From positions 56,269 to 120,268 of the forward strand of contig DATIGN010000127.1 in the NCBI GenBank assembly GCA_035454685.1: DNA of 64,000 nucleotides, in the 5' to 3' direction. The position numbers and the translations under genes were made by a program. This DNA is from Burkholderiales bacterium. GTDB taxonomy: Bacteria; Pseudomonadota; Gammaproteobacteria; Burkholderiales; SG8-39. Positions within the stretch are counted from its first letter, which is position 1, and each line of letters opens with the position of its first letter. This document shows, piece after piece, positions 11,702-63,716 of this stretch. Below the pieces are notes generated by a model that was not told the DNA's origin, made no database searches, and worked only from the letters and a program-made list of their open reading frames with translations.

Positions 11702-11740
11702 CGGGAACTCCGCAGTGAATTCGCCGATAATTCTAACCGC

Positions 11741-35055: not shown

Positions 35056-35056
35056 A

Positions 35057-35072
35057 CTGTATATATTGCCAC
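35057..35072. promoter_or_regulatory. Imperfect LexA-box-like site (CTGT-N8-CCAC) in the 19-bp dinB/lexA divergent spacer
   Basis: CTGTATATATTGCCAC. The left half is perfect; the right half matches 2 of 4 positions of ACAG. It overlaps the TATATT -10 candidate. Confidence 0.45.
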
Positions 35073-35074
35073 TA

Positions 35075-39248: not shown

Positions 39249-39258
39249 CGGCTACGCA

Positions 39259-39564
39259 TCACTCATACGCGATCTGCACTTTGGAGAGGTAGTCGCCGTA
39301 CTCGCTGATGCTCGCGTGCAGCGCGGCGCGGTCGCCGCTGCGCGCCCCTTCCTCGATGTACTTGCCGAGCGTGGAGACGTGAACGAAGCCGTATGAGCTC
39401 CCGACTCCCTTCATGCGGTGTCCAAGCTGGCGAAGCTTCTCGAAGTCGGCAGCGGCGAGCGCCGCGCGCAGAGCGTCGAGCTCCTGGTGCCGGTTGCTCA
39501 TGAACACCGGGATAAGGTCCTGCAGGTCCTTCGCTACAGTCACCGAGTAGTGATCCACGCTCAT
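39259..39564 (-). CDS. Histidine phosphotransfer (Hpt) domain protein
   Basis: 101 aa, four-helix pattern with LRQLGHRMKGVGSSYGF (consensus HxxKG). Confidence 0.8.
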   Translation of the reverse strand: MSVDHYSVTVAKDLQDLIPVFMSNRHQELDALRAALAAADFEKLRQLGHRMKGVGSSYGFVHVSTLGKYIEEGARSGDRAALHASISEYGDYLSKVQIAYE

Positions 39565-47118: not shown

Positions 47119-47729
47119 GCCGGCGTCTTTTCCTTCACGCGCAGGAATTTCTCCACCAGCTCGGCGGTGAGCACGACCTTCGGGTCATACTCCGGCGCGT
47201 CCTCGAGCTGCTCGAGGTCATTCAGGCCGCAGGCCTTGTAGATCCGGTTGGTGGCCGAGATAAGTCGCACCGGCCGCTCGGCGCTCGCGTTGAAGTGCTG
47301 GTGGATCGTATTCGGCGGAATGTAGATCACGTCGCCCGCCTCCCACTCGTAGCGCTTCACCTCGGCTTGCGGCTTCCAGTGATAGGTGTCGGTGATCTCG
47401 ACGTCGCAGTCCTGGTGCAGGTCGTAGCCGCGGCCCTCGAGGACATAGAGGCATTCCTCGGCAAGGTGGCGGTGCTTGCCCGAGCGGCTGCCCGGCGGAA
47501 TGATCAGCATGTACGCGTCCACCGTCTCCATGCGGGTGTTCATGCCTTCGTTGATGAGGTGCTTGAGCAGCCCCTGGCGCGACATCTCCCACGGCATGTC
47601 CTCGGGGCGCACGATTTTCTTCCGCTTGGCGTTGCGCGCCGGCGCGGCCGCGGCATCGTCCAGCAGCGCCTGATAGAGCTTCTGGTTGTGTCGGCCCTTC
47701 CTCCACGCCCTCGACTCGTCCCAAGCCAT
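47115..47729 (-). CDS. Cupin-domain protein (HQHFN family)
   Basis: GKHRHLAEECLYVLEGRG and PPNTIHQHFN cupin motifs. Confidence 0.75.
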   Translation of the reverse strand: MAWDESRAWRKGRHNQKLYQALLDDAAAAPARNAKRKKIVRPEDMPWEMSRQGLLKHLINEGMNTRMETVDAYMLIIPPGSRSGKHRHLAEECLYVLEGRGYDLHQDCDVEITDTYHWKPQAEVKRYEWEAGDVIYIPPNTIHQHFNASAERPVRLISATNRIYKACGLNDLEQLEDAPEYDPKVVLTAELVEKFLRVKEKTPA

Positions 47730-47730
47730 G

Positions 47731-48288
47731 TCAATCCTCGGAATGATTGAAGTTATGCTCTGCTGGTCGCACCTCGTAGCCTTCCGCTCCGGGCGCCGGC
47801 GTCTTCGGGCGCGGCTCTACCAGCTGCTGGAACAGCATGTTCATGAACATGAACATCGGCTTCGTCTTGATCACGAGCGCACGCGCCGGCTTGTCGGGGC
47901 TCGCGTTGAAGTGCTGGTGCACGCAGTTGTTGTGCACGATCGCGACGTCGCCCGCCTGCCAGTCGTAGCGGATGCCGTCGTGAATTTCAAAGCCTTTTCC
48001 ATCCAATATATAAAAGGCTGCCTCGTTGACGTGCCCGTGCTTCTGCGACTTGCCGCCGGGCGCGTATTCCTCGAGGTGCAGGTGGAACATCTGGGTGACG
48101 CCGTCCTTGGGCTCGACGTAATGGCGGCTGTAGGTCTGCGGGCCGTCGACGAACTTGAGCTCCCTGCCCTTGCGCACGCGCGGCATCGCGCGCAGCCGCG
48201 CGAGCTCCTCTTTCAGGCTGTACTGCCCCTGTATCGCGCGGACGAAAATCCGGTCCTTCTTGCTGTGATAGTGCGACTCGGTGCTCAT
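47731..48288 (-). CDS. Cupin-domain protein (HQHFN family), paralog of 51839-52393
   Basis: QKHGHVNEAAFYILDGKG and NCVHQHFN. Start at the internal ATG (MSTESHY). Confidence 0.75.
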   Translation of the reverse strand: MSTESHYHSKKDRIFVRAIQGQYSLKEELARLRAMPRVRKGRELKFVDGPQTYSRHYVEPKDGVTQMFHLHLEEYAPGGKSQKHGHVNEAAFYILDGKGFEIHDGIRYDWQAGDVAIVHNNCVHQHFNASPDKPARALVIKTKPMFMFMNMLFQQLVEPRPKTPAPGAEGYEVRPAEHNFNHSED

Positions 48289-48313
48289 TCGCGCTTCAGT
48301 ATACATTTATCCG

Positions 48314-49441: not shown

Positions 49442-49483
49442 ACTGCGCTCATATGGAACAACCCGGTTCCGAGATGAGGAACA

Positions 49484-50767: not shown

Positions 50768-50778
50768 GAGGAGGACCA

Positions 50779-51837: not shown

Positions 51838-51838
51838 A

Positions 51839-52393
51839 ATGGGCAAGGAGTCGCACTATTCGAGCAAGAAGGACCGGGTCTTCGTCCGGGCGATTCAGGG
51901 CCAGTACAGCCTAAAGGACGAGCTCAAGCGCCTGCGCTCCCTGCCCCGTGTCATCCGGGGCAAGGAGATGAAGTTCCAGGACGGCCCGCAGTCCTTTTCC
52001 AAGCACTTCGTCGAGCCGGTCGACGGGATGACGCAGACGCTGCACATCCACCTAGAGGAGTACGCCCCCGGCGGCCGCACGCAGAAGCACGGCCACGTCA
52101 ACGAGGCGGCGTTCTACATCCTGGACGGCAAGGGCTACGAGATCCACGACGGCGTGCGCTACGACTGGCAGGCCGGCGACGTCGCGATCGTGCACAACAA
52201 CTGCGTGCACCAGCACTTCAACGCCGACCCGGACAAGCCTGCGCGCGCGCTCGTGCTGAAATCGAAGCCCATGTTCATGTTCATGAACATGCTGTTCCAG
52301 CAGTCGGTGATCCCGCGGCCCACCGAGCCGGCGACGCCGGCCGGCGCGGGCTTCGAGCCGCGGCACGACGAGACGCACTACAACCACGAATGA
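51839..52393 (+). CDS. Cupin-domain protein (HQHFN family)
   Basis: Close paralog of 47731-48288, collinear from ESHYxSKKDR to MFMFMNMLFQQ. Confidence 0.75.
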   Translation: MGKESHYSSKKDRVFVRAIQGQYSLKDELKRLRSLPRVIRGKEMKFQDGPQSFSKHFVEPVDGMTQTLHIHLEEYAPGGRTQKHGHVNEAAFYILDGKGYEIHDGVRYDWQAGDVAIVHNNCVHQHFNADPDKPARALVLKSKPMFMFMNMLFQQSVIPRPTEPATPAGAGFEPRHDETHYNHE

Positions 52394-53505
52394 AGTCCGC
52401 CGTCGTCTCGCAGGATTTCGCCGCCAAGTTCGCGACCGAAAGGGAGACTCCGTACACGCGCTGGGTGCGCGAGGAAGGGCTCGACATCATCGGCTCGTTC
52501 TACGTCCAGAACCTCCACACGGTCGAGCTCAAACCCTGGCCGCGGCGCGGTGGCAAGGGGGTGTTCCTCAATCACGACGCCTCGCGCACCTCCAACGACT
52601 GCTACGTGTGCGAGATTCCGCCCGGCAAGAGCCTCGCGCCGCAGCGCCAGCTCTTCGAGGAGATGATCTACGTGCTCGACGGGCGCGGCTCGACCGCGGT
52701 GTGGAACAACGCTGGCAACCGCGCGAGCTTCGAGTGGAAGGCAGGAGCGATCTTCGCGATTCCGCTCAACTGCTGGCATCAGCACTTCAACGGCTCGGGC
52801 AAGGACCCGGTGCGCTACGTCGCCGTGACTAACGCGCCGGTGATCATCAACGCGTTCGGCGACCTCGACTTCGTCTTCAACTGCGATCACGACTTCAAGG
52901 AGCGCTTCGCAGGCGAGCCCGAGTACTTCGCGAACAAGGGCGAGCAGAAAGGGCTCCTGCTCGACACCAACTTCGTCGCCGACGCGATCAACCTGCCGCT
53001 TTTCGCCGCCAAGGAGCGAGGCGCAGGCGGCGGCCACACACGCTTCAGCATGGCGAAGGGCTCGATGAACAGCCACATCTCCCAGTTTCCCGTCGGCACC
53101 TACAAGAAGGCACACGCCCACGGGCCCGGCGCGCACGTCATCGTGCTTTCCGGCGAAGGCTTCAGCCTGATGTGGCCCGAGGGCGAGGCGCCGAAGCGCT
53201 ACGACTGGCGCGAAGGCACGATGATCGTTCCGCCGAACCTGTGGTTCCACCAGCACTTCAACACCGGCACCACGCCGGCGCGCTACCTCGCCTTCAAGGC
53301 TGAGGGCGTAGCCGTGCGCAACGCGCAGGGCGTGCCCAAGGCCTGGATCAGCCGTCGCCTCGGTGGCGACCAGATCGACTACGCCGACGAGCGGCCCGAG
53401 ATCCGGCAGTGGTTCGCCGAGGCGCTCGCGAAGCATGGCGTCAAGCCGAACATGGACAAGGCCTACGCCACGGAGCGCGGCGAGCTGCCAGAAAAAGCCG
53501 CTTAG
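52390..53505 (+). CDS. Bicupin protein (HQHFN family; gentisate-dioxygenase-like architecture)
   Basis: Two cupin modules ending NCWHQHFN and NLWFHQHFN. Confidence 0.75.
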   Translation: MKSAVVSQDFAAKFATERETPYTRWVREEGLDIIGSFYVQNLHTVELKPWPRRGGKGVFLNHDASRTSNDCYVCEIPPGKSLAPQRQLFEEMIYVLDGRGSTAVWNNAGNRASFEWKAGAIFAIPLNCWHQHFNGSGKDPVRYVAVTNAPVIINAFGDLDFVFNCDHDFKERFAGEPEYFANKGEQKGLLLDTNFVADAINLPLFAAKERGAGGGHTRFSMAKGSMNSHISQFPVGTYKKAHAHGPGAHVIVLSGEGFSLMWPEGEAPKRYDWREGTMIVPPNLWFHQHFNTGTTPARYLAFKAEGVAVRNAQGVPKAWISRRLGGDQIDYADERPEIRQWFAEALAKHGVKPNMDKAYATERGELPEKAA

Positions 53506-54293
53506 TACTTGTCGAGCCGGAAGCGGCGCGGCTTGAGCGCGCGGCAGATCTCCCGCGTGAGCCCTGCCTGCGGCAGCGCGAGACCGCACTCCGCGGCCAT
53601 CTGCGCGACGATCGCCATGTCATCCTCGGCCCACGCCATGGTCTGCGTACCCCACTTCTCGAGCGCCGAGTTCGCCGCGCTCGACATGCCGAGCGCTCGG
53701 CGCAGCATCTGGACATCTACGCCATAGCGCTGCGCCAGAGCGAGGCCTTCGTGGTCCGCTACCAGGCAGGCCCACATGATGAGGTTGTTCACCGCCTTCG
53801 CGACCTGCGCCGAGCCTACAGCGCCAGTGTGGACTACCTCGGATGAATAGGCCTTCAGCACCGGAGTGACGCGCTCGACCACCTCCTTCCGTCCGCCCAC
53901 GAACGAAAGCAGCGTCCCCTGGTCCGCCGCCTCCCCTCCGCGGCAAACCGTCGAGTCGATCAGCGAAATCTCCCGGTTGGCTTTGGCCAGCTCTTGCACG
54001 GTTTTCGGCAGGATTGTGCTCAGGATAGCGACGATCTTCCCCTTCAAGGGCTCGCGGTTTTTCTCGAGCAGCTGGCGCACCTCGTGATCGAAGCCGACGC
54101 AGACAAGAACAATGTCGCTCTCTCTTGCCAAGACAGCGGCATCGCTCCGCCACGACGCAGACTTCCTTTCCACCTCGCCCTTCTTTCCTGGGTCAACGTC
54201 GGTCGCAAGAGTCCGAAACCCTTTTCTTGCCAAGTGCCCGATGATCGGCAGCCCCATGCGCCCCGCTCCGACGACGCCGACGGTGTCGCTCAT
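53502..54293 (-). CDS. NAD(P)-dependent 3-hydroxyisobutyrate-dehydrogenase-family oxidoreductase
   Basis: Start at the internal ATG (MSDTVGVVGAGRMGLPIIGHL). AKAVNN motif. Confidence 0.85.
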   Translation of the reverse strand: MSDTVGVVGAGRMGLPIIGHLARKGFRTLATDVDPGKKGEVERKSASWRSDAAVLARESDIVLVCVGFDHEVRQLLEKNREPLKGKIVAILSTILPKTVQELAKANREISLIDSTVCRGGEAADQGTLLSFVGGRKEVVERVTPVLKAYSSEVVHTGAVGSAQVAKAVNNLIMWACLVADHEGLALAQRYGVDVQMLRRALGMSSAANSALEKWGTQTMAWAEDDMAIVAQMAAECGLALPQAGLTREICRALKPRRFRLDKY

Positions 54294-56002
54294 CGTTTCT
54301 GGGTAATCGTGTCGAGGAGCGCCGGCTGGCCGGCCTTGACGCGCGCGATGGCGCGCCTGAGCGCGGCGGCGACATCGCCGGGACGGCCGATAGGACCCTC
54401 GGCGTACCAGCCCATGGACTTCGCCAGCGCGGCGAAATCCGGGGCCGGGTCGTCCATGTCCATGCCGATGTGCGCGCGCTCCACCGGCGTGCCGCGCAGC
54501 TTCGCCATGCGGATCTGGTGCTCCCAGTCGTTGTAATAGGCGCGGTTGTTGTACATCACCACGAGCAGCGGAATGCGGTGCTTTGCCGCCACCCACAGCG
54601 CGCCTGCGTCGAACATGAGGTCGCCGTCGGGCTGAAGGTCGACGACCAGCCGCTTTGCATCGCGGTGCGCGAGCGCGACGCCAAGCGAAATTCCGATCTG
54701 CGTCGCCGTGCCGAGAGACTTTCCGGCATGGCGATACGGCTTGTCGAAGTCCCAGATCTGCCGCGCCCGGTCGTCCAGGGTCCCCGCCGCGAGCACCCAG
54801 TCTTCGGACTTGATCGCGTTCCACACTTCCGTCGCGAGCCGCGGCAAGGTAATCGGGCTCGCGTCCCAGTCCTCCTTCGCTTCCGCCTGCCACTTCGCAT
54901 GCGCTTTTTGGCGCAGCTCGGCCACGGTTCTTAGCCAGGAATCGCGCTTAACGGGTCTTGATGCAAGAAGCTTCGTTAGCGTAGGAATCGCAAGCGTGGT
55001 ATCCGCGAGAATGCGCAGGTCGGCGTGCGCAAGGCGCTGGTAGTCCATCGCCCAGCTCGAAATCTCGAGGTCGCCGAAGCCGATGTCGATCCATTTGCAG
55101 TCCGCCGGAACGAGCGAGGTCACCTCGCGCGTCGTGCTCACGAGCTCGGTCGTGGGGCGCTCCCAGTCCCGCGTATCGAGGCAAAGGATGAGGTCCGCGT
55201 CGCGAAAGACATGCTTCACCATGCTCAGGTTGAGCGGATGCCGGCTCGGGAAGTTGAGGCGGCTGTTGACGTCGTAGACCGGTGCGCCGAGCGTCTCGGC
55301 GAGCTCGACCAGGGCATGGAAGCCAGCGGGCTCGCGGCCGACATACTCGGCGATGATCGCCGGGCGTTTCGCGGCAGCAAGCATCTCGGCCGCTCTTTCC
55401 AGCGCTGCGGGGTCCGGTGCGAGCGGGCTCGGCACTTTGGCGGCGGACGATTTTGGAAGCGCGACCTCATGCTCGAGCGGCTGCTCCTGGAGCCAGGCGT
55501 CGTAGCACATGTAGATCGGGCCGCGCGGCTCGGTCATCATCACCGCATAGGCGCGCGCGAAAGATTCGGGCACGCCGTCGATCACGGTCGGCTGATAGTC
55601 CCACTTGGTGTATGCGCGCACCGCCTCGCCCTGCACCAGCGCGCTGTGGATCCAGTCGATGCGCGGCCGGCGTTTGGTCTCGTCCATAGGCCCCGTGGCG
55701 CCGATGATGAACACCGGCGCGCGGTCGGCGTAGGCGTAGTAGATCGCCATGTTGGCGTGCAGGAGGCCGACCAGGTTATGCAGGATGGCGACCATCGGTC
55801 TTCCGCTCGCCTTGGCGTAGCCGTGAGCGATCTGCACCGCGGTCTCCTCATGCTGGCAGAGCATCATGGCCGGCCGGTTGCCGCCGTAATTCACCATCGA
55901 GTCGTGCAGCCCGCGGTAGGAGGCGCCCGGGTTGAGTGCCGCATAGGGAAAATCGTAGGCATGCAGCATGTCCACGATCACGTCGGAAGCCCAGCGCTTC
56001 AT
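54290..56002 (-). CDS. Thiamine-diphosphate-dependent enzyme (acetolactate-synthase/benzoylformate-decarboxylase superfamily)
   Basis: Start at the internal ATG (MKRWASDVIVDML). HEETAVQIAHGYA Pyr-domain Glu. GDLMFDAGALWVAAKHRIPLLVVMYNN ThDP-binding motif. Confidence 0.85.
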   Translation of the reverse strand: MKRWASDVIVDMLHAYDFPYAALNPGASYRGLHDSMVNYGGNRPAMMLCQHEETAVQIAHGYAKASGRPMVAILHNLVGLLHANMAIYYAYADRAPVFIIGATGPMDETKRRPRIDWIHSALVQGEAVRAYTKWDYQPTVIDGVPESFARAYAVMMTEPRGPIYMCYDAWLQEQPLEHEVALPKSSAAKVPSPLAPDPAALERAAEMLAAAKRPAIIAEYVGREPAGFHALVELAETLGAPVYDVNSRLNFPSRHPLNLSMVKHVFRDADLILCLDTRDWERPTTELVSTTREVTSLVPADCKWIDIGFGDLEISSWAMDYQRLAHADLRILADTTLAIPTLTKLLASRPVKRDSWLRTVAELRQKAHAKWQAEAKEDWDASPITLPRLATEVWNAIKSEDWVLAAGTLDDRARQIWDFDKPYRHAGKSLGTATQIGISLGVALAHRDAKRLVVDLQPDGDLMFDAGALWVAAKHRIPLLVVMYNNRAYYNDWEHQIRMAKLRGTPVERAHIGMDMDDPAPDFAALAKSMGWYAEGPIGRPGDVAAALRRAIARVKAGQPALLDTITQKR

Positions 56003-57117
56003 TCGTAAGCCCACTCCCCGGACGCCTTGAGCGCCACGCACTTCTCCGGATCGATGCGCACGTAGAGGCTCGCGCCGACCGGCGTGCGCAGCGACGGATG
56101 CGCGCGCGACTGCACCGAGCGGCGGCCGATCATTACCTGGAAGTCAACGACCTCGCCGAGGAATACCTTCTGGTCCACGGTGGCCTGGTAGACGTTCTCG
56201 CCGTCGCGGCGGCTCTCGGAAAGCTCCACGTCTTCCGGCCGGATCGAGAGCACCACCTCCTCGCCGCTCTTCAGCGAATCGACACCGCGCGCCTTCAGTT
56301 CGCCGATCTCGGAGCGGATGCGGTAGAAGCCGCCCGCCGGGTCGGCTGCGCTCACGTCACCCTTGATGAAGTTGGTGGTGCCGACGAAGTCTGCGACGAA
56401 CTGGTTGCGCGGGCGCTCGTACACCTCGCGCGGCGAGCCGAGCTGCTCGATGCGCCCCGCGTTCATCACCGCGATCGAGTGCGACAGCGCGAGCGCCTCG
56501 CTCTGGTCGTGCGTGACGTAGACGGTGGTGATGCCGAGCTCGCGCTGCAGCCGCTTGAGCTCGAAGCGCATGCGCTCGCGCAGCTTGGCGTCGAGGTTGG
56601 AAAGCGGCTCGTCGAGGAGCAGGAGCGACGGCTCCATGACAAGGGCCCTCGCGAGCGCCAGGCGCTGCTGCTGCCCGCCGGAGAGCTTGGTCGCCTCGCG
56701 ATCGGCCATTTCCTCCAGCGCCACCACCTTGAGCACGCGGTGCACGCGCTCGTGGATCTGGATTTTCGGCATGCTTTTCCTGGAAACCTGCAACGGAAAG
56801 GCCGCGTTGTCGAACACCGTCATGTGGGGCCAGATGGCATAGGACTGGAACACCATGCCGAGTCCGCGGCGGTTCGGCGGCACGAACACCCGCTGTGTCG
56901 AGGAATAGATGACGCGGCCCCCGACGACGATTTCCCCGGAACGCGGCTTTTCCAGCCCGGCGATCGAGCGCAGCGTAGTGGTCTTGCCGCATCCGCTCGG
57001 GCCGAGCAGCGTGAAGAGCTTGCCCTGCGGCACGTCGAAGCTCACGTCCTGCGCGGCGCGGATTGTCTGGCCGTGCTCGCCGGCGTACTCCGTGCACAGA
57101 GCCGAAACGCTGAGCAA
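55999..57117 (-). CDS. ABC importer ATP-binding protein (PotA/FbpC-like, with a C-terminal regulatory domain)
   Basis: TTG start at 57117, just after the permease stop. GPSGCGKTT, LSGGQQQRLALARAL, LLLLDEPLSNLD. Confidence 0.88.
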   Translation of the reverse strand: MLSVSALCTEYAGEHGQTIRAAQDVSFDVPQGKLFTLLGPSGCGKTTTLRSIAGLEKPRSGEIVVGGRVIYSSTQRVFVPPNRRGLGMVFQSYAIWPHMTVFDNAAFPLQVSRKSMPKIQIHERVHRVLKVVALEEMADREATKLSGGQQQRLALARALVMEPSLLLLDEPLSNLDAKLRERMRFELKRLQRELGITTVYVTHDQSEALALSHSIAVMNAGRIEQLGSPREVYERPRNQFVADFVGTTNFIKGDVSAADPAGGFYRIRSEIGELKARGVDSLKSGEEVVLSIRPEDVELSESRRDGENVYQATVDQKVFLGEVVDFQVMIGRRSVQSRAHPSLRTPVGASLYVRIDPEKCVALKASGEWAYE

Positions 57118-57119
57118 GC

Positions 57120-58862
57120 CTAGTGCTCCTTGATCCCGAACTTGCTGCCGACCCACTGCGCGATCATCACCAGGATGAACAGCGCGATGATGAACATCAC
57201 CCCGAGCGCCGAGAGCTCGACGTACTGGCCGTTCTCCCACAGCTCCCAGATGAGGATCGAGAGCACCTCGTTGCCCGGGCTATAGAGAAGGATCGAGCTC
57301 GAGAGCTCGCGGATCGACACGATCATGATGTAGATCCAGCCGGCGACCAGCCCCGGTTTGAGCAGCGGCAGAATGATGCGCCTGAAGCTCGTCGTCCAGG
57401 AAGCGCCGCTCATGGCCGCCGATTCCTCGAGCTCCTTGTGGATCTGCAGCATCGAGGTCGTGTTGTAGCGCAGCCCGTAGGGCAGGAAGCGCGTCACGTA
57501 GGCGATGACCAGGATCCAGATCGTGCCGTAGACGCCGATCGGCACGTAGAGGTAGAGGATCATGATCGACAGGCCAAGCACGATGCCCGGAAACACCATC
57601 GGCAGCGAGGCGATGTTGTCGAGCAGCCAGCGGCCGGGCAGCCGGGTCTTGACCACGATCCAGCAGATCACCGAGGTCACGAGCATGATGAGCGTGGCTG
57701 AGCCGACAGCGAGCACCAGGCTGTTCCACACCGAGCGCCACAGTCCCGGGTGATCGAGCACGGTGCGGTAGGGCTCGAACGTCATGCGCTGGATCGCTTC
57801 GATGGAGGGCACGGAGTAGAACTTCTGGAACGACGACCACAGCAGGACCGCGAACGGCAGCAGCACGATGAGCAGGAAGTAGACCAGGAACACCGCGACC
57901 GCGAGGTAACGCCACGGGCCGAGGTCGATCTGGCGCGGCCGGAAGCCCTTGCCGGTCATGGTCGCGTACTTGTTGCCCCGGCTCGACAGCACCGACTGAA
58001 AGTACACGCCGATAGTGGTGAGCAGCAGCAGCGTGACCGCGTAGGCGGAAGCGAGGCCGATCTGGCTTGGATAGCGGTGCACCGCCTGGTAGATCGCCGA
58101 GGTGAAGACCTGAATGCCGACCGGAAGCCCGAGCAGCGCCGGCACCTCGAACGATTCGATCGCCCGCACGAAAAGAATGAGCAACGTGGCGAAGATCGCG
58201 GGCCATACCAATGGCAATGTCACCCGGGTGAGCACCTGCCACACGCTCGCGCCGCTCATCACGGCCGACTCTTCGAGCGCCGGATCCATCGCGCGGAACG
58301 CCGCGGTCATCAGCAGGAAAGCCATCGGCGAGTAGTGCAGCGCGTCGACCCAGATCATTCCCCAGAGCGAGTAGACGTTGATGAACACCGCTTCGGTGTC
58401 GAAGACCTTCTGCAGCGCCAGGTTGATGAGGCCGATCTTCGGGCTGCCCAGCAGGATCCACGAGACGGTGAAGAGAATTCCCGGGATCACGAGCGGAATG
58501 AGCGAGAGCGCGAAAAAGAGCGCCTTGAACGGGGTATTGGTGCGCTCGTTCATCCACGCGAGCAGCGTCCCGAGCACGAAAGCGAGCACGGCGGTGCCCG
58601 AGGCAAACTTGACCGAGTTCCAGAACAGCACCCAGGTTTCCGCCGAGCCGTAGGCCTCGCGGTAGTTGCCGAGCGTGAACTCGGCCGCCTTGGCCGCGGT
58701 GTGGGGCGTGAAGAAGCTCTGCCAGAGCAGGAAGCCGAGCGGCACGATGCCGAGGTAAACCGTGACGGCGACACAGACGCCGATGATCAGCCATTTCGGG
58801 TCGAAGGCGAGCCGCGGCGCAGCGGCCGCCGGCGCCCTAGCGAGGGTGGTGGTGCTCGGCAT
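57120..58862 (-). CDS. Fused two-module ABC importer permease (FbpB/ThiP-type)
   Basis: 580 aa, two MalFG-type halves. Confidence 0.85.
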   Translation of the reverse strand: MPSTTTLARAPAAAAPRLAFDPKWLIIGVCVAVTVYLGIVPLGFLLWQSFFTPHTAAKAAEFTLGNYREAYGSAETWVLFWNSVKFASGTAVLAFVLGTLLAWMNERTNTPFKALFFALSLIPLVIPGILFTVSWILLGSPKIGLINLALQKVFDTEAVFINVYSLWGMIWVDALHYSPMAFLLMTAAFRAMDPALEESAVMSGASVWQVLTRVTLPLVWPAIFATLLILFVRAIESFEVPALLGLPVGIQVFTSAIYQAVHRYPSQIGLASAYAVTLLLLTTIGVYFQSVLSSRGNKYATMTGKGFRPRQIDLGPWRYLAVAVFLVYFLLIVLLPFAVLLWSSFQKFYSVPSIEAIQRMTFEPYRTVLDHPGLWRSVWNSLVLAVGSATLIMLVTSVICWIVVKTRLPGRWLLDNIASLPMVFPGIVLGLSIMILYLYVPIGVYGTIWILVIAYVTRFLPYGLRYNTTSMLQIHKELEESAAMSGASWTTSFRRIILPLLKPGLVAGWIYIMIVSIRELSSSILLYSPGNEVLSILIWELWENGQYVELSALGVMFIIALFILVMIAQWVGSKFGIKEH

Positions 58863-60417
58863 GCCGATGCGGCACGCGGGGATCCTGGCTGAAGACCAGG
58901 GACTTGATCGTGACCGGCACGGTATTCGAAGGCACCCGGATGCGGCCGAGATCGATGTAGTCGAAGTCGCGCAGCGCGACGCCGTCGATCACCAGCACTT
59001 CGGAGCGCAGTCTCCAGTCTTCCTTGAGGATCGCGCCGAGCGTATGCGCGACGTCGCCTTCGAGGACGAGGTAGATCGGCTTCTCCCGCTCAATTGTGGC
59101 GCGCAGAGCAAGGGTGATTGCGCGGGCCAACGTCGACAGGCGCTCGAACGAAGGTTCGCCGCGCCACTTGAACGCGAGTGCGACCTCGGTTTCGCCTTCG
59201 GCTATATCGAAAGCTTCGAAATGCGCGCGGATGGCCGCAGCCACGGTCGCGGCGTCGATCGGCCCTTCGAGCCGTACGGGCGGCTGCAGCGCCGGCAGGT
59301 TCTTGCGCGGCAGCAGCGCCCCCGGCTCGGACACATATACCGTGTTGCCGGAAAGCTGAACGCTGTACTCGGAGGCGCCGAACGCCGTCGCGCGGATGCA
59401 CTCTCCGGCGGGAAGCAGTTTCCCCGGCAGGCGGTCGAGGCGCTGCGCGAGCGCCCGGCCCAGTCGCCTGCCCAGGTCGCCGAAATCGCGCTCCTCGCGT
59501 CCGTAGACGTATTCACCGACCCCGCCGGAAAACATGACGCCGTGGACGGCGCGCAGCTCCCTGAGCGGCTCGGTGAGATAGCCGCGCCGCTCGCCCAGTA
59601 TCGCCATGCAGAGCGATTCAGCCATCCATTCGCACAAGAAATCCAGCTCAGCCGGTGCGACCCGGCCGCCGAGCTGTAAATCGAGCCCTGCCTGCCGTGC
59701 CAGCGCGCGCCCTTGGGGATCAAGGCGTGTGATGCGACCCTCGGCGTCCGCGACGAGCAGCCGGCCGCCGATGTGGATCGCGGCCGTCTCGAGGACGCGG
59801 CCGTGCTCGATCAGGGCGAGCTTGGTGGTGCCGCCGCCGATATCGATGTTGAGCACGCGCAGGCCGCGGTCGTGCGATACCTGCGCCGCGCCCGAGCCGT
59901 ACGCCGCAAGCATCGCTTCCATGTGATGCCCGGCGGTCGCGCAAACAAACTCTCCGCCCATCTCGGCGAGCAGCTCGCCGATCGCCTGGGCATTCTCGCG
60001 GCGCAACGCTTCGCCGGTCAGGATCACCGAGCCGGTATCGACCTGGTCGGGATGCAGGCCGGCGGCCGCGTACGCCTCGTCGATGACGCGGCCAACGGCC
60101 TCTTCGTCGATGCGCGTCTCGCTCGCATAAGGCGTGAGCGCTACCGGCGACTGGTAGAGCGTCTCGCGGTTGACGACGAAATAGCGGCTCGACAGGTCCT
60201 CCCCCATGCGTCGCATATGCAGCCGCGAGAAGATCACCTGGGTACCAGCCGAGCCGATGTCGATGCCCACGCTTGTCAGCGAGACGTTGTCTTGCAGCCA
60301 GAGCGCGTCGTGCTCGGACGAAGCATCGTGCTCGTGGTCGGCGTCGTGATCGTGATCATGATCGTGATCCACCCCGTGAACGTGGTCGGCGAGCGTATGG
60401 CGTTTCTCACTCGCCAT
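58837..60417 (-). CDS. EutA-family (ASKHA-fold reactivase-like) ATPase with His/Asp-rich termini
   Basis: SVGIDIGSAGTQ, VILTGEALRRENA, LNIDIGGGTTKLAL and MFSGGVGEY resemble EutA. N-terminal HVHGVDHDHDHDHDADHEHD and C-terminal HRHAEHHH. Confidence 0.72.
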   Translation of the reverse strand: MASEKRHTLADHVHGVDHDHDHDHDADHEHDASSEHDALWLQDNVSLTSVGIDIGSAGTQVIFSRLHMRRMGEDLSSRYFVVNRETLYQSPVALTPYASETRIDEEAVGRVIDEAYAAAGLHPDQVDTGSVILTGEALRRENAQAIGELLAEMGGEFVCATAGHHMEAMLAAYGSGAAQVSHDRGLRVLNIDIGGGTTKLALIEHGRVLETAAIHIGGRLLVADAEGRITRLDPQGRALARQAGLDLQLGGRVAPAELDFLCEWMAESLCMAILGERRGYLTEPLRELRAVHGVMFSGGVGEYVYGREERDFGDLGRRLGRALAQRLDRLPGKLLPAGECIRATAFGASEYSVQLSGNTVYVSEPGALLPRKNLPALQPPVRLEGPIDAATVAAAIRAHFEAFDIAEGETEVALAFKWRGEPSFERLSTLARAITLALRATIEREKPIYLVLEGDVAHTLGAILKEDWRLRSEVLVIDGVALRDFDYIDLGRIRVPSNTVPVTIKSLVFSQDPRVPHRHAEHHHPR

Positions 60418-60568
60418 TGGCGCGTCGGTGGTACTCGAGGCGGTGCACGGTGCTCTTTACGAAGCGCAGCTGGCTGGCGAGGGTAGTAATGCCGAGTTCG
60501 TCCTCCTCGCCCGAAAACGAAGTTAGCAACCGGATCGAGTTCGCGACCGAGGACAGCGCCTTCGTCAC
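60407..60568 (-). CDS. Candidate 53-codon stand-alone IclR-type HTH mini-protein (or gene remnant)
   Basis: The GTG overlaps the SBP stop as GTGA, and the TGA overlaps the eutA-like start (ATGGCGAGTGA). Translation: VTKALSSVANSIRLLTSFSGEEDELGITTLASQLRFVKSTVHRLEYHRRANGE. It is hidden inside spurious track ORF 60407-61072. Confidence 0.45.
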   Translation of the reverse strand: MTKALSSVANSIRLLTSFSGEEDELGITTLASQLRFVKSTVHRLEYHRRANGE

Positions 60569-61587
60569 TTCCGAATGAATAGGCCCTCCCAGAGCCTGTT
60601 CCACTTTTCCTGCTCGTCGAGCACCGTGACCGGATCCACCATGGTGTACGGGAAGCGGTTGAGGTCGGTCCTGACTTTGGTGCTCACCGGCACGCGCCCC
60701 ATAGAGTTGAGCAGCTCCTGACCTTCCGGTGAGAGCACGAAATCGACGAAGAGCAGCGCGGCGTGAGGATGCGGCGCGTTGCGCGCCACCGCTATCCCCT
60801 GCGGCCGGCCGACCACCGGCTCGACTGGCAGCCAGTCGATCGGCGCGCCGCGGCGCTTGAGCGATTCGGCGTTGCTGTTGTAGACGGTAAGGCCGACCGG
60901 GATCTCGCCCGCGGCGATGAGTTCGGCAAGCAGCACATGGCCCTTGCGCACGTCGGGCTTCATCTCCGCGAGGCTGCGGAAGTACGCCATGCCCGCCGCC
61001 TCCCCCCAGGTCTTCACCAGCGTCGCCATCCATTCCGCGTCGGTGGCTTCGATGCCGATGCGCCCTCTCCACTTCGGATCCGTGAATCCAGTATAGCTTT
61101 TCGGGATCTCGTCACGCTTTACCTTTGCGGTGTTGTAGGCCACCACGAAGAAATTCACCCGATCCGGAATCCACTGGCGGTGCGACGGAATCGCGCTTGC
61201 CGGCAGGTCGGCGAGGTGGGGCGAGTGGAAATCGGCGAAGAGTTTCTCGCGCGCCATGATCTCCATCTCCGGGCCATTGGTCTCGACCACGTCGACCGCA
61301 AAGCGCCGCGCGCGCGCCTCGGTCACGGCGCGCTGCACGACCTTCTCGCTGATCGTGCGGAAAATCTCGACCTTCACGCCGGTTTTCCTCTCGAATGCCT
61401 GGCCCAGCGGCCCGGATTCGGTCGGAGCGAGCGAGGTGTAGAGGACGACGCTCCCCTCTTTGCGCGCGTTCTCTAGCAGGCGGCGGTCGCGATCGGCGCC
61501 GCTATAGCGGTAGACGGCTTCACTGGCGAAGCTCGCGCTTCCGATGCACAGCACGAGCCCCGCAATCAATTTCAATGGGCGATTCAT
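60565..61587 (-). CDS. Family-1 ABC substrate-binding protein
   Basis: Signal peptide MNRPLKLIAGLVLCIGSASFA. Paralog of 50779-51837. First gene of the importer operon. Confidence 0.85.
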   Translation of the reverse strand: MNRPLKLIAGLVLCIGSASFASEAVYRYSGADRDRRLLENARKEGSVVLYTSLAPTESGPLGQAFERKTGVKVEIFRTISEKVVQRAVTEARARRFAVDVVETNGPEMEIMAREKLFADFHSPHLADLPASAIPSHRQWIPDRVNFFVVAYNTAKVKRDEIPKSYTGFTDPKWRGRIGIEATDAEWMATLVKTWGEAAGMAYFRSLAEMKPDVRKGHVLLAELIAAGEIPVGLTVYNSNAESLKRRGAPIDWLPVEPVVGRPQGIAVARNAPHPHAALLFVDFVLSPEGQELLNSMGRVPVSTKVRTDLNRFPYTMVDPVTVLDEQEKWNRLWEGLFIRK

Positions 61588-61672: not shown

Positions 61673-62731
61673 GTGAGCACCAAGACCACCACGGCCGTCA
61701 CGCATTACCACATCCAGAAGAAACGGCGGGCCGAGTTCATCGAGCAGTGGCGCAAGAACCGGCGCACCGTGATCCGCGGCGAAGATGTCGCGCTGCAGCG
61801 CACTGCGCGAGGTTTGCGGAGCGGCGTCTACATGGGGTGGGACGGCGACTCGCCGACGCGCTGCCTCGACGCTCTGGTACACGAGATCGACCCGGGCACG
61901 GTGGCGACGATCCACCGTCATTCATGGGACGCGCAGCTTTTTATCGTCGAGGGCTCCGGCTGGAGCGAGATCGACGGCCGCCGCTTCGAATGGAAGCCTT
62001 GGGACGCGATCCACATCCCGGCGTGGAGCTGGCACCGACACGGCAACGACGGCTCGAGGCGCGCCCGCTTCATGAGCTATTCGTCCGAGCCGATGCTCTG
62101 GACGCTGGGTCTCTGCGTGCTCGAAGACCGAGGGTACGAGGATGTGCGCGACCTCCCCCCGCCGCCGGCTTCAAGCCCGGGTATTGACGGTGACGATCCA
62201 TATTCCCGCCGAAGACGACGGATTTTTCAGGAAACCAAGAAACGACGTGGCGGCCGCATCCATACGCCCTACGACGAGCAGGATCTGCTCGCCACGCCGC
62301 GCGGCACGCGCACCAAGTTCCTGGTCGACCGCGCCATCGGCAGCGAATCCTCGGGCATCACCCAGGTCATGATCCAGTTCGCGCCAGGCAAGACGCAGTC
62401 GCTGCACCGCCATCCCGGCGAAGCGTGGCTCTACGTTGTCGAAGGTTACGGCCACAGCTTCATGGGCACTGCTCCGGACCGCGGGCAGCACTACCGCTGG
62501 AAAAAAGGCGATCTCATCGTGGTCGACCATTTCCTGTGGCACCAGCACTTCAACGACGATCCCAAGGGGGAGGCTCGACTCGTGCGCGTCCACATGTTCG
62601 ACTCGATCCTGGAAACCATGCGCGCGCTCACCGACCCGTTGGTGCTTTTCGAGGAGGCGGAGGATACGCTCCTCAGCATGCAGGAAATCTCGCAGATCGA
62701 GTGGCCGGACGATCGGCGGCCGGAAGGTTGA
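61673..62731 (+). CDS. Bicupin protein
   Basis: IHRHSWDAQLFIVEGSG...WSWHRHGN and HRHPGEAWLYVVEGYG...FLWHQHFN. GTG start. Confidence 0.75.
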   Translation: MSTKTTTAVTHYHIQKKRRAEFIEQWRKNRRTVIRGEDVALQRTARGLRSGVYMGWDGDSPTRCLDALVHEIDPGTVATIHRHSWDAQLFIVEGSGWSEIDGRRFEWKPWDAIHIPAWSWHRHGNDGSRRARFMSYSSEPMLWTLGLCVLEDRGYEDVRDLPPPPASSPGIDGDDPYSRRRRRIFQETKKRRGGRIHTPYDEQDLLATPRGTRTKFLVDRAIGSESSGITQVMIQFAPGKTQSLHRHPGEAWLYVVEGYGHSFMGTAPDRGQHYRWKKGDLIVVDHFLWHQHFNDDPKGEARLVRVHMFDSILETMRALTDPLVLFEEAEDTLLSMQEISQIEWPDDRRPEG

Positions 62732-62744
62732 AGCGGCTCCGCCG

Positions 62745-63716
62745 ATGGCCGCGCCCGCCCCTGCTCTCCCGCCTGGCATCGTCTCGCTGCACACCTTACC
62801 GGCGGAACACCACGACAAGGACTGGGACGCGATCATCGTGCCAGCCGGGGTCAAGGAGCGGCTGCTCGCGCAGGCGCTGCTCACGCTCAAGCACGGGCGC
62901 AAGCTCGCCACCCTTGCGGGGCTGCCGCACGGGCTCATTGTGCTCGCCGGCCCCCCGGGCACCGGTAAGACGACGCTCGCACGCGGCCTCGCGCAGGTAT
63001 CGGCGCTGGCGCTGGCGCGCGAAGGGGCGACCACGCTCTTGGAAATCAACCCGCACGCCTTCCCGAGCGACATGCTGGGCGAGAGCCAGCGCAACATCAT
63101 GCGGCTTCTCACCGACACGATCCCGGAGATTGCGGCGCGGCGCCCGCATACCGTGGTTCTGATCGACGAGGTCGAGAGCTTCGCGGTGCGGCGCAGCACC
63201 GCCTCATTCGAGACCAACCCGGTCGACGTGCACCGCGCCACCGATGCGGTGATGCTCGGCATCGACGAGGTCGCGCGCAAGCTTCCCGCAGTGCTCTTCG
63301 TGACTACCACGAACTTCATCGACGCCATAGACGAGGCGTTCCTGTCGCGCGCCGACCTGGTGATGCATTTCGCGCTGCCCGATCCTGGGACGATCGCCCG
63401 CATCCTGCATGACTCGCTCGCGGAGCTCGCCGTACAATGGCCCGCGCTGAAACCGCTCCTGCAATCCGAGGATGAAATCAATGAGGTCGCGAGGCTCTGC
63501 GGAGGCTGGAGCGGGCGTCAGGTGCGCAAGCTCGTCCTCGCGGCGCTCGCCCAGCGCCTGGAGGTGGCGAAGGATCCGGCGCGCCTTACCTTCGAAGACC
63601 TGCGCGAGGCGGCGCGCAAGCGCGGCGGCGTCGAGTGGGTCGGGGCCGCCGGCCCGTCGTCCAAGGAGCTCTTTCCCGACGTCCCGAAGCATTTGATGCA
63701 CGACCATCATCACTAG
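62745..63716 (+). CDS. AAA+ ATPase, TRIP13/Pch2-like core, with a His-rich C-terminus
   Basis: ATG 62745. Walker A GPPGTGKTT, Walker B VVLIDEVESF, sensor region TTTNFIDAIDEAFLSRADLVMHFALPD. C-terminal KHLMHDHHH. Confidence 0.85.
   Translation: MAAPAPALPPGIVSLHTLPAEHHDKDWDAIIVPAGVKERLLAQALLTLKHGRKLATLAGLPHGLIVLAGPPGTGKTTLARGLAQVSALALAREGATTLLEINPHAFPSDMLGESQRNIMRLLTDTIPEIAARRPHTVVLIDEVESFAVRRSTASFETNPVDVHRATDAVMLGIDEVARKLPAVLFVTTTNFIDAIDEAFLSRADLVMHFALPDPGTIARILHDSLAELAVQWPALKPLLQSEDEINEVARLCGGWSGRQVRKLVLAALAQRLEVAKDPARLTFEDLREAARKRGGVEWVGAAGPSSKELFPDVPKHLMHDHHH

What the first reader, a model, noticed from the sequence alone, without database searches (positions are those of the whole stretch)
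58837..60417. EutA-family ATPase with His/Asp-rich termini embedded inside an ABC-importer operon, with no ethanolamine lyase nearby
Seen in sequence:
- A 526-aa ASKHA protein with EutA-like blocks lies between the binding-protein gene and the permease gene.
- It overlaps the mini-ORF at its 5' end and the permease by 26 nt at its 3' end.
- It carries HVHGVDHDHDHDHDADHEHD at the N-terminus and HRHAEHHH at the C-terminus.
- The operon continues with the ABC ATPase, a ThDP enzyme and a HIBADH-type dehydrogenase.

Known: EutA-type proteins reactivate cofactor-damaged enzymes. No eutBC or mutase genes are present in the window.

Inference: it may be a reactivase or metal-delivery factor for a different client, such as a cupin or the ThDP enzyme. 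The AAA+ protein at 62745 has a similar His-rich tail.
Basis: partly seen in the sequence, partly recalled or inferred. Interest (0 to 1): 0.65.

Follow-up and report, generated by a model that had tools for sequence, protein, structure and literature searches.

The report
Histidine-tailed EutA-like ATPase partnered with cupins
This gene is a real relative of the ethanolamine-lyase repair factor EutA, but comparative genomics shows it belongs to a large, mislabelled branch that travels with a highly conserved double-cupin metalloprotein and metal-transport genes, so it is probably an ATP-driven helper that loads or resets the metal site of that cupin enzyme.

Summary
Window 58837-60417 (-) encodes a 526-aa protein matching Pfam EutA end to end, with ten His and ten Asp in residues 1-46 and five His in the last 17. 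It overlaps the permease gene by 26 nt, and the window has no eutBC or B12 enzyme.

It is not a bona fide EutA. It scores below every NCBIfam EutA cut-off and is 34% identical to E. coli EutA, which lacks both tails.

The position inside an ABC operon is partly a deletion artefact. Relatives have SBP-NicO-IclR-EutA-like-permease. The "mini-ORF" is an iclR gene with an in-frame internal deletion.

The partner conserved across clades is a ~370-aa bicupin (window 52390-53505). Directly adjacent in 9 of 11 informative contexts outside the main clade; among 72,556 plasmids, found only in the four holding this EutA-like type.

His-rich tails are conserved in the clade and go with the closest bicupin subtype. 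NicO, CobW, CDF or TerC-type metal genes recur nearby. A neighbouring TRIP13-like AAA+ protein, paired with a second bicupin, also keeps a His tail.

Best reading, inferred and untested: an ATP-dependent metal-insertion or reactivation chaperone for the bicupin. I found no literature on it.

The parts
58837..60417 (-). EutA-family (PF06277) ASKHA ATPase paralogue, 526 aa. This is the gene of the finding.
   Evidence: ORF. (Pfam, 396 bits, full length). (below the EutA equivalog cut-offs). (34% identity to E. coli EutA). (nucleotide-binding motifs D53xG55, D192xGGGT and S297GG conserved in 136-138 of 138 family members).
60280..60417 (-). His/Asp-rich N-terminal extension (residues 1-46). It holds the conserved HTLADHxHG motif, (D/E)H repeats and LWxQDN. 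E. coli EutA has no such extension.
58840..58890 (-). His-rich C-terminal tail (residues 510-526, PHRHAEHHHPR). Its last 8 codons and the stop codon overlap the permease start.
   Evidence: The tail is also present where the genes do not overlap, for example in L026.
60407..60568 (-). The "mini-ORF" is a remnant of an IclR-family regulator gene with an in-frame internal deletion. Its GTG start overlaps the SBP stop codon, and its stop codon overlaps the EutA-like start.
   Evidence: HTH_IclR, 23.8 bits. (homology to L002 breaks at 9368 and resumes at 9985). (an independent in-frame deletion in L003).
60565..61587 (-). Periplasmic solute-binding protein of the FbpA/HitA structural class, without the ferric-ion ligand residues.
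57120..58862 (-). Fused two-domain ABC permease, 580 aa.
   Evidence: Present downstream in 56 of 64 related loci.
55999..57117 (-). ABC ATPase with a TOBE_2 domain. The start coordinate is approximate, set by comparison with the 372-aa orthologue in L081.
54290..56002 (-). ThDP-dependent enzyme (PRK08327-like; distant relative of benzoylformate decarboxylase).
53502..54293 (-). HIBADH-type NAD(P) dehydrogenase.
52390..53505 (+). 371-aa bicupin, the proposed client or partner. The HxHx4H...HQHFN motif is intact in the C-terminal barrel only.
   Evidence: Co-occurrence with the EutA-like gene.
51839..52393 (+). 184-aa monocupin. It overlaps the bicupin start by 4 nt, which suggests translational coupling.
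47115..48306 (-). Two further monocupins, of 204 and 191 aa. They belong to the recurrent set of cupin ~185 + cupin ~200 + bicupin.
61673..62731 (+). Second bicupin, 352 aa, gentisate-1,2-dioxygenase-like.
62745..63716 (+). TRIP13/Pch2-like AAA+ ATPase with a conserved His-rich C-terminal tail. It is next to the 352-aa bicupin in every locus that carries it.

Best explanation
The gene encodes a member of a large, non-canonical branch of the EutA family. Its working partner is a highly conserved ~370-aa bicupin metalloprotein (window 52390-53505), not ethanolamine ammonia-lyase. Two small cupins (~185 and ~200 aa) may belong to the same complex.

Proposed mechanism:
1. The disordered His/Asp-rich N- and C-terminal tails capture a divalent metal. 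Ni or Co is favoured by the neighbouring NicO gene, but the metal is not established.
2. The ASKHA ATPase core binds the bicupin and, using ATP, opens or remodels its buried 3-His/4-His site.
3. The correct metal is then inserted, or a wrong or oxidised metal is exchanged. This parallels the way canonical EutA and DdrAB exchange damaged cobalamin.

Shown here:
- family membership and intact ATP-binding motifs;
- conserved metal-type tails;
- conserved pairing with the bicupin;
- recurrent metal-transport genes nearby;
- absence of B12 enzymes.

Inferred: physical interaction, metal binding, ATP-driven metal insertion or exchange, and the identity of the metal.
For: Family:
- Full-length PF06277 match with the ASKHA motifs conserved.
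- Not a true EutA: 336 bits against a cut-off of 598.
- 34% identity to E. coli EutA, which lacks both tails.
- No EutB or EutC in the window or in 87 loci.

Partner:
- In the close clade the bicupin lies within 10 kb in 25 of 31 loci that have at least 8 kb of flank on both sides.
- In 7 loci (L052, L054, L055, L058, L075, L078, L079) the paralogous EutA-like copies, 38-45% identical, each sit beside a bicupin371-like gene; the copy in L067 lies too near the locus end to tell.
- In 9 of 11 informative contexts from other clades the bicupin is the immediate neighbour, and in a tenth it is 3 genes away. One pair overlaps by 4 nt.
- In PLSDB the bicupin family occurs in exactly 4 of 72,556 plasmids. 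These are the same 4 that carry EutA-like genes of 39% identity or more, with two copies of each family per plasmid. The 22 plasmids with lower-identity EutA matches have no bicupin; annotations and the one context read (Haladaptatus, EutB-EutC-EutA) point to canonical eut operons.
- The Phyllobacterium neighbour is a verified homologue, E 3e-81.

Metal theme:
- The tails are conserved.
- 59 of 133 representatives of the wider branch have 4 or more His in the N-extension.
- 20 of 133 start with M-H-D/E, like the invariant Ni-binding MHE motif of HypA (PMC5557546).
- His-rich extensions go with bicupins of 61% identity or more; most partners of 31-47% bicupins lack them.
- NicO is present in 34 of 63 loci.
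- CobW, CDF and YjbE/TerC-type genes lie beside other pairs.
- The neighbouring AAA+ protein also keeps a His tail, whereas the enzymes and binding proteins of the cluster have none.
Against: - There is no experimental or structural evidence of interaction or metal binding.
- The AlphaFold models were poor (pLDDT 58.9 and 57.8). Foldseek returned only generic ASKHA and bicupin matches.
- Many EutA-like proteins that pair with bicupins have no His-rich tail, so metal capture by tails cannot be the core function of the whole branch.
- In the window itself the bicupin is 5.3 kb away on the other strand.
- The closest relatives have lost NicO.
- One distant member has neither a cupin nor eutBC nearby, and locus L063 shows no cupin.
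- No metal-sensing or cobalamin riboswitch was found.
- Gene adjacency is equally compatible with a stable enzyme subunit.
Confidence: 0.45

Rival explanations
1. The EutA-like protein is a stoichiometric catalytic or structural subunit of an ATP-consuming multi-subunit cupin enzyme. ATP would be spent in each turnover, for example to activate the substrate, rather than in occasional maturation or repair.
For: - Tight adjacency and overlapping genes with the bicupin.
- Very high conservation of the bicupin, 61-95% across phyla, which is typical of obligate complexes.
- The recurrent set of bicupin plus two monocupins.
- Other ASKHA families, such as the hydantoinase and acetone carboxylase family, do use ATP in catalysis (general knowledge).
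Against: - No catalytic role is known for any PF06277 member. The only characterised activity is chaperone-like cofactor exchange.
- The His/Asp tails, and the parallel His-tailed AAA+ remodeller next to the second bicupin, fit maturation better than catalysis.
Confidence: 0.2
2. It is mainly a cytoplasmic metal store or buffer (His-rich, like Hpn or the HypB tails) with no specific client. The gene neighbourhood would reflect only a shared metal regime.
For: - Conserved His/Asp tracts.
- Varied metal-transport neighbours.
Against: - A 460-residue ATPase core with all nucleotide-binding motifs conserved is unnecessary for storage.
- Bicupin pairing persists in members without tails.
Confidence: 0.1
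3. It is an accessory cytoplasmic component of the ABC importer, for example receiving the imported ligand or metal at the permease.
For: - It lies immediately upstream of the permease or of aldolase II plus the permease. A permease is present downstream in 56 of 64 loci, and the 26-nt overlap is conserved.
- The same type of importer appears beside distant members.
- The closest solved relatives of the SBP are ferric-binding proteins.
Against: - Many bicupin-linked members have no ABC genes nearby.
- The FbpA ligand residues (Tyr-Tyr, Glu) are not kept in the SBP.
- In relatives a regulator and a NicO gene separate it from the SBP.
Confidence: 0.07
4. It reactivates the neighbouring ThDP enzyme.
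For: - The ThDP gene is present in 33 of 45 loci of the close clade.
- A 62%-identical ThDP gene lies beside the Phyllobacterium pair.
Against: - The ThDP gene is absent from most distant contexts that keep the bicupin.
- His-rich tails have no obvious role for ThDP.
Confidence: 0.05
5. It is an ordinary EutA serving an ethanolamine ammonia-lyase, or another B12 enzyme, encoded elsewhere in the genome. NicO and CobW would supply cobalt.
For: - The database name is "EutA".
- NicO and CobW can relate to cobalt.
Against: - It scores below all EutA equivalog cut-offs.
- There is no EutB, EutC or B12-binding domain in the window, in 87 loci or in the Pfam-annotated neighbourhoods.
- No cobalamin riboswitch was found.
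- The lower-identity EutA examined sits in an EutB-EutC-EutA operon.
Confidence: 0.03

Closest known systems
EutA, the ethanolamine ammonia-lyase reactivating factor (PF06277; E. coli b2451)
   Same: - Same Pfam family over the full length.
- 34% identity across the whole core.
- Same ASKHA nucleotide-binding motifs.
- The proposed mode of action, ATP-driven exchange of a bound cofactor in a client enzyme, is modelled on it.
   Different: - Scores below the NCBIfam equivalog cut-offs.
- Carries a 46-residue His/Asp-rich N-extension and a His-rich C-tail that E. coli EutA lacks.
- Not found with eutBC in any locus read; found with a bicupin instead.
Diol and glycerol dehydratase reactivases (DdrAB, GdrAB) and Hsp70-type HscA in Fe-S cluster transfer
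   Same: These are ASKHA-fold ATPases that act as chaperones on a cofactor-bearing client (general knowledge).
   Different: - No sequence match to them was seen beyond the superfamily level.
- The fold search gave only generic ASKHA hits.
- Their clients are B12 enzymes or IscU, not cupins.
His-rich nickel and cobalt metallochaperones (HypA with its MHE motif, HypB, UreE, SlyD, COG0523/CobW)
   Same: - Conserved His-rich tails.
- Some relatives start with M-H-D/E, like HypA's invariant MHE nickel site.
- NicO or CobW genes lie nearby.
   Different: - A completely different fold: ASKHA ATPase rather than G3E GTPase or HypA.
- Metal binding is untested.
- The window protein itself starts MASEKRHTLADH, not MHE.
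AAA+ metal-site or active-site remodellers (NorQ/NorD, CbbQ/CbbX Rubisco activases)
   Same: The concept of an ATPase encoded beside the enzyme whose active site it matures or clears. The neighbouring TRIP13-like AAA+ plus bicupin352 pair looks like a second such couple.
   Different: Different ATPase class. No VWA partner is present. The link is by analogy only.

Membership tests
Pfam PF06277 (EutA family) | Full-length profile match above the gathering score | tested here: met
   396.2 bits against a cut-off of 27. Residues 47-509 match profile positions 3-474 of 475.
Bona fide EutA (ethanolamine ammonia-lyase reactivase, NCBIfam equivalogs NF007991-NF007994) | Score at or above the curated equivalog cut-off | tested here: not met
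   The best score is 336.5 bits against a cut-off of 598. The others are 250 against 769, 228 against 952 and 194 against 799.
Bona fide EutA | Genomic association with eutB and eutC | tested here: not met
   tblastn with E. coli EutB and EutC gave no hit in the window or in 87 loci. A canonical example is EutB-EutC-EutA in Haladaptatus.
Bona fide EutA | ATP-dependent reactivation of ethanolamine ammonia-lyase by cobalamin exchange | not testable with these tools
   This needs biochemistry.
ASKHA ATPase superfamily | Phosphate-1 (DxG), phosphate-2 (DxGGGT) and adenosine (SGG) motifs | tested here: met
   D53/G55, D192/G194-T197 and S297-G299 are conserved in 136-138 of 138 aligned family members, E. 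coli EutA included. The weak fold-search hits are all ASKHA proteins.
His-rich metallochaperones (HypB, UreE, SlyD or COG0523 type) | A conserved His-rich metal-binding tract | tested here: met
   10 His in residues 1-46 and 5 His in the last 17. Conserved in 117 homologues.
His-rich metallochaperones | Demonstrated metal binding and transfer to a client | not testable with these tools
   This needs ICP-MS, ITC and transfer assays.
G3E GTPase metallochaperones (HypB, UreG, CobW) | G3E P-loop GTPase fold | tested here: not met
   Only ASKHA-type families match. This is an analogy, not membership.
FbpABC / HitABC ferric-iron importer (for the surrounding ABC genes) | The SBP carries the Fe3+ ligands (Tyr-Tyr, Glu, His) | tested here: not met
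   The closest solved relatives are HitA, SfuA and FbpA. In the alignment NNYYW falls on YNSNA, and the Glu position is not kept.
NiCoT / NicO transporter linked to the locus | A PF03824 gene between the SBP gene and the regulator gene | tested here: not met
   Absent from the window. Present in 34 of 63 related loci.
EutA-like / bicupin gene pair (proposed here) | A bicupin371-family gene in the same locus | tested here: met
   Window 52390-53505 (+), 5.3 kb from the EutA-like gene.

The most novel reading that the evidence does not exclude
Soil bacteria, and possibly archaea, carry dedicated ATP-driven maturation or repair factors for cupin metalloenzymes. One is a EutA-derived ASKHA ATPase and the other a TRIP13-like AAA+ ATPase. 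Each bears a His-rich metal-capturing tail and each is paired with its own bicupin. Together they would ensure that the correct metal (perhaps Ni or Co) occupies a site that would otherwise mis-metallate. That would be the first client-specific metallochaperone system for the cupin fold. It would also mean that a large share of the proteins annotated "EutA" have nothing to do with ethanolamine.
Probability: 0.3. Interest if true: 0.8.

Novelty: new variant of a known kind. Interest (0 to 1): 0.62.

Why it matters
Cupins are a textbook case of the mis-metallation problem. They are generally thought to pick up metal from buffered pools without a dedicated helper. The reviews found (for example PMC4192464) estimate that only about 30% of metalloenzymes have delivery systems.

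A conserved ATPase-plus-bicupin module with metal-binding tails would give a directly testable candidate for assisted cupin metallation or reactivation.

On the practical side, thousands of database entries named "ethanolamine utilization protein EutA" appear to be mis-annotated. So do some bicupins named "ethanolamine ammonia lyase-activating protein". Such names could inflate ethanolamine-utilisation calls in soil metagenomes.

Tried and rejected
- **Structure prediction.** Models of the EutA-like protein and the bicupin, each from a 22-sequence alignment, were poor (pLDDT 58.9 and 57.8). Foldseek against the PDB gave only generic ASKHA and bicupin matches with TM scores of 0.4 or less, so no specific structural analogue can be claimed.
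- **PDB sequence search.** For the EutA-like protein it returned only a marginal MreB hit.
- **Ferric-iron importer idea.** I tested whether the ABC system imports ferric iron and feeds the chaperone. The SBP resembles HitA and FbpA, but the iron ligands are not conserved. Rejected as stated.
- **Canonical EutA or B12 link.** Rejected: no EutB, EutC or B12 domains and no cobalamin riboswitch.
- **Metal-sensing riboswitches (NiCo, Mn).** None was found in the window or in four relatives.
- **Promoter and terminator scan.** The number of sites did not exceed chance.
- **Literature.** Seven searches covered EutA with cupin, gentisate, histidine-rich, dioxygenase and the "activating protein" name, the terms bicupin / EutA-like, and cupin with metallochaperone and ATPase. 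None found a description of this pairing.
- **Pathway substrate.** The cluster holds a Rieske LigXa-like oxygenase, ThDP enzyme, HIBADH, aldolase II, a PhtD-like protein and an FNR-type reductase. I could not identify the substrate.
- **Gene fusions.** None of the 150 best cluster representatives is long enough to hold both a EutA-like part and a bicupin; the longest is 606 aa.


Full report
**1. The observation**

- Window 58837-60417 (-) is an ATG-initiated ORF of 526 aa.
- It matches Pfam PF06277 (EutA) with 396 bits over residues 47-509, which is profile positions 3-474 of 475.
- Residues 1-46 (MASEKRHTLADHVHGVDHDHDHDHDADHEHDASSEHDALWLQDNVS) contain 10 His and 10 Asp. The last 17 residues (SQDPRVPHRHAEHHHPR) contain 5 His.
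- The core has only 2.2% His, so 10 or more His in 46 residues has P = 4e-8.
- The stop codon lies 26 nt inside the permease ORF, whose ATG is at 58862.
- Downstream on the same strand lie a fused 580-aa permease, an ABC ATPase with TOBE_2, a ThDP enzyme and a HIBADH-type dehydrogenase. Upstream lies a solute-binding protein.
- A Pfam sweep of the window's ORFs of about 140 aa or more, chosen by third-position GC, found housekeeping genes (infB, nusA, rimP, trpS, a DNA polymerase III alpha paralogue). It found no EutB, EutC or B12-binding protein.
- tblastn with E. coli EutB and EutC found nothing in the window or in 87 related loci.

The description is therefore accurate.

**2. Family placement**

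- The protein fails all four NCBIfam EutA equivalog models. The best score is 336 bits against a cut-off of 598.
- It is 34% identical to E. coli EutA across the whole core: residues 47-509 align with 6-465.
- E. coli EutA starts directly at the first beta-strand (VNTRQLLSVGIDIG) and ends at VKSLAFPS. Both tails are therefore additions.
- The ASKHA nucleotide-binding motifs (D53xG55, D192xGGGT, S297GG) are conserved in 136-138 of 138 aligned family representatives, so an active ATPase is expected.
- The PDB holds no solved EutA relative; the only sequence hit was a marginal MreB match.
- My AlphaFold model was poor (pLDDT 58.9). Foldseek returned only generic ASKHA folds.

**3. The tails are conserved**

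- The 120 best database homologues (72-99% identity, mostly Burkholderiales soil MAGs) all keep an HTLADHxHG motif, (D/E)H repeats and LWxQDN at the N-terminus. Nearly all keep a PHRHxHHH-type C-terminus.
- Among 117 homologues with complete N-termini, the extension holds 6-11 His and the C-tail averages 5.8 His.
- An exhaustive search of 50%-identity cluster representatives found 2,833 family members at E of 0.001 or less.
- Among the best 150, which are 36-73% identical (the highest values are fragments), 133 have a readable N-terminus. Of these, 59 have 4 or more His in the N-extension and 45 have none or one.
- Twenty of the 133 begin M-H-D/E. That is the same N-terminal pattern as the invariant nickel-binding MHE motif of HypA (PMC5557546).
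- This is a resemblance, not a test, and the window protein itself does not start that way.

**4. Context in close relatives**

- A scan of one genome per species found 481 stretches encoding relatives. I analysed the best 80 loci, which are 59-97% identical. They come from Burkholderiales, Usitatibacter, Sulfuritalea, Herbaspirillum and Oxalobacteraceae, and also from Vicinamibacterales/Acidobacteriota and Alphaproteobacteria.
- Synteny is strong:

| Neighbour | Loci with it / loci with enough flank |
|---|---|
| Permease | 56 / 64 |
| ABC ATPase | 48 / 55 |
| ThDP enzyme | 33 / 45 |
| HIBADH | 30 / 42 |
| Monocupin | 33 / 41 |
| 371-aa bicupin | 28 / 34 |
| SBP | 46 / 53 |
| IclR | 49 / 73 |
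| NicO | 34 / 63 |

- In Pfam-annotated relatives the order is SBP - NicO (PF03824) - IclR - EutA-like - permease - ATPase - ThDP - HIBADH. A divergent bicupin352 - AAA+ - Tct transporter set lies on one side, and a convergent bicupin371 - cupin184 pair on the other.
- Some lineages add an FNR-type reductase, a PhtD-like protein and a class II aldolase around the gene.

**5. The mini-ORF explained**

- The window's 53-codon ORF (60407-60568, -) hits HTH_IclR.
- Against locus L002, homology runs through the SBP 3' end and the first ~45 codons of iclR. It then jumps about 616 bp to the last five codons of iclR and the EutA-like start.
- The deletion is in frame. The remnant keeps its GTG start, which overlaps the SBP stop codon, and its stop codon, which overlaps the EutA-like ATG.
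- Locus L003 (91% identical) carries a different, also in-frame, internal iclR deletion.
- So "embedded in an ABC importer operon" is partly the result of losing nicO and most of iclR. The preserved frame suggests that translational coupling into the EutA-like gene is retained, but this is inference.

**6. The conserved partner**

Across clades, the one neighbour that persists is a ~360-410-aa bicupin of the window's 52390-53505 type.

- *Paralogues.* In seven loci (L052, L054, L055, L058, L075, L078, L079), each paralogous EutA-like copy (38-45% identical) sits beside a bicupin371-like gene of 31-43% identity. The copy in L067 lies too near the locus end to tell.
- *Distant representatives.* Eleven contexts were informative.
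  - In nine the bicupin is the direct neighbour, with gaps of 15-330 nt or a 4-nt overlap. These are P0121, P0124, P0192, P0127, P0429, P0431, P0175, Phyllobacterium zundukense and Sinorhizobium terangae.
  - In one (P0132) it is three genes away.
  - In one low-GC contig (P0435) it is absent.
  - For P0132 and P0192 no DNA was available, so the bicupin call rests on size and Pfam signature only.
- *PLSDB.* The bicupin family occurs in exactly four of 72,556 plasmids. These are the same four that hold EutA-like genes of 39% identity or more, with two copies of each family per plasmid. The 22 plasmids with lower-identity EutA matches have no bicupin. Many of those matches are annotated eutA, and the one context I read (Haladaptatus) is an EutB-EutC-EutA operon.
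- *Phyllobacterium.* The "hypothetical protein" next to its EutA-like gene is 38% identical to the window bicupin over the full length, E 3e-81.
- *Database names.* Some NCBI records call this bicupin "ethanolamine ammonia lyase-activating protein". That name is probably inherited from this very adjacency.

By contrast, the ThDP enzyme recurs in only about two of the eleven distant contexts.

**7. The bicupin itself**

- It is extremely conserved: 74-95% identical within the main clade and 61-69% beside EutA-like genes that are only 42-50% identical.
- It is abundant, with 6,420 hits and single 90%-identity clusters of about 1,000 members.
- It has no close solved relative. The fold search gave only generic bicupins.
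- Invariant residues show an HxHx4H...HQHFN set in the C-terminal barrel. The N-terminal barrel has Gln/Arg where the His pair would be (read from the sequence). This suggests one 3-His or 4-His metal site.
- It is usually accompanied by two monocupins of ~185 and ~200 aa. In the window these are 51839-52393 and 47115-48306.

**8. The metal theme**

- His-rich N-extensions go with the close bicupin subtype: identity of 61% or more in L086, L087, L089, L090 and the main clade.
- EutA-like genes beside bicupins of 31-47% identity mostly lack them.
- Metal-handling genes of different families recur next to the pair: NicO, CobW, a CDF exporter and a YjbE/TerC-type protein.
- The TRIP13/Pch2-like AAA+ ATPase at 62745-63716 (PDB 6lk0, E 1e-26) is adjacent to bicupin352 in all loci that have it.
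- Its MHDHDHGH-type C-tail is present in all of the roughly 25 complete orthologues read. The bicupins, ThDP enzyme, dehydrogenase and SBPs have no such tails.
- The SBP resembles ferric-binding proteins but lacks their Tyr-Tyr and Glu ligands. I therefore do not claim the ABC system imports metal.
- No riboswitch was detected.

**9. Interpretation**

The most economical reading is that this branch of the EutA family has the bicupin as its client. It would use the family's ATP-driven, chaperone-like cofactor-exchange mechanism on a metal site rather than on cobalamin. In this clade the His/Asp tails would act as metal-capture arms.

- I put about 0.85 on "partner of the bicupin, not an ethanolamine-lyase factor".
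- I put about 0.45 on the specific metal-insertion or reactivation mechanism.

The main rival is a stoichiometric subunit of an ATP-consuming cupin enzyme. A variant is that EutA-like plus bicupin together form a two-part chaperone acting on the small cupins. Roles as an importer accessory, a ThDP-enzyme factor or a true EutA are poorly supported.

**10. Novelty**

Seven full-text searches found no description of a EutA-cupin link or of an ATPase metallochaperone for cupins. I rate this a new variant of a known kind. It is of moderate-to-high interest, because it offers a testable candidate for assisted cupin metallation and exposes a widespread mis-annotation.

Noticed in passing
window 60407-60568 (-); L003 about 8380-8475; L002 9240-10000: The IclR regulator gene upstream of the EutA-like gene has suffered two different in-frame internal deletions in two close lineages (the window and L003). 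Both keep the start and the stop codons that overlap the neighbouring genes. This suggests recurrent loss of the repressor with translational coupling preserved.
   Followed up: yes
L005 8468-9232; L026 6273-7088; L081 8442-9218: A short (245-271 aa) NicO/NiCoT-like membrane protein with an RHGxDPDH signature sits between the SBP and IclR genes in 34 of 63 related loci. It is absent from the window and its closest relatives.
   Followed up: partly
window 61673-63716 (+): A gentisate-dioxygenase-like bicupin (352 aa) is followed after 13 nt by a TRIP13/Pch2-like AAA+ ATPase with a conserved His-rich C-tail. The pair is conserved in about 25 loci. It looks like a second remodeller-plus-cupin couple.
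   Followed up: partly
window 45910-53505: The window carries a dense cupin island. It holds two MFS transporters, monocupins of 204 and 191 aa, a Rieske LigXa-like oxygenase (49484-50767), a second FbpA-like SBP (within 50293-51837), cupin184 and bicupin371. That makes six cupin genes within 17 kb. The substrate is unknown.
   Followed up: partly
P0302 and P0403 (homologues of window 52390-53505): Some NCBI records name the bicupin "ethanolamine ammonia lyase-activating protein". JGI names its EutA-like neighbour "ethanolamine utilization protein EutA". Both names look like annotation carried over without an ethanolamine context.
   Followed up: partly
L052 5862-14388 (Sulfuritalea MAG): Three EutA-like genes and two extra bicupin371-like genes lie within about 9 kb, which indicates repeated duplication of the pair. 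The two extra EutA-like copies have only mildly His-rich N-termini.
   Followed up: partly
P0121-P0270 (cluster representatives): Twenty of 133 diverse EutA-like representatives start with M-H-D/E followed by ExH/DxH patterns. This resembles HypA's invariant nickel-binding MHE N-terminus.
   Followed up: partly
window 33457-35271 and 40109-44261: SRAP (33457-34038), a Y-family polymerase (IMS, 34015-35271) and a DNA polymerase III alpha paralogue (40109-43462) lie in this stretch. Next to the polymerase paralogue is a 395-aa ORF without Pfam hits (43074-44261). This may be an imuA/imuB-dnaE2-type mutagenesis cassette.
   Followed up: no
window 38007-39564 (-): A response-regulator receiver domain fused to a Ser/Thr protein kinase domain (413 aa) lies next to an Hpt protein and a TPR protein. 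This is an unusual hybrid signalling arrangement.
   Followed up: no
window 11243-15073 (+): A 1,276-aa ORF whose only Pfam hit is Pyr_redox_2 in the middle (residues 514-858). The flanking ~500 and ~400 residues are unassigned.
   Followed up: no
L096 7001-8449 (33.6% GC contig): A EutA-family gene, 32% identical to the window protein, has neither eutBC nor a cupin within 7 kb. The family therefore has at least a third context type.
   Followed up: partly
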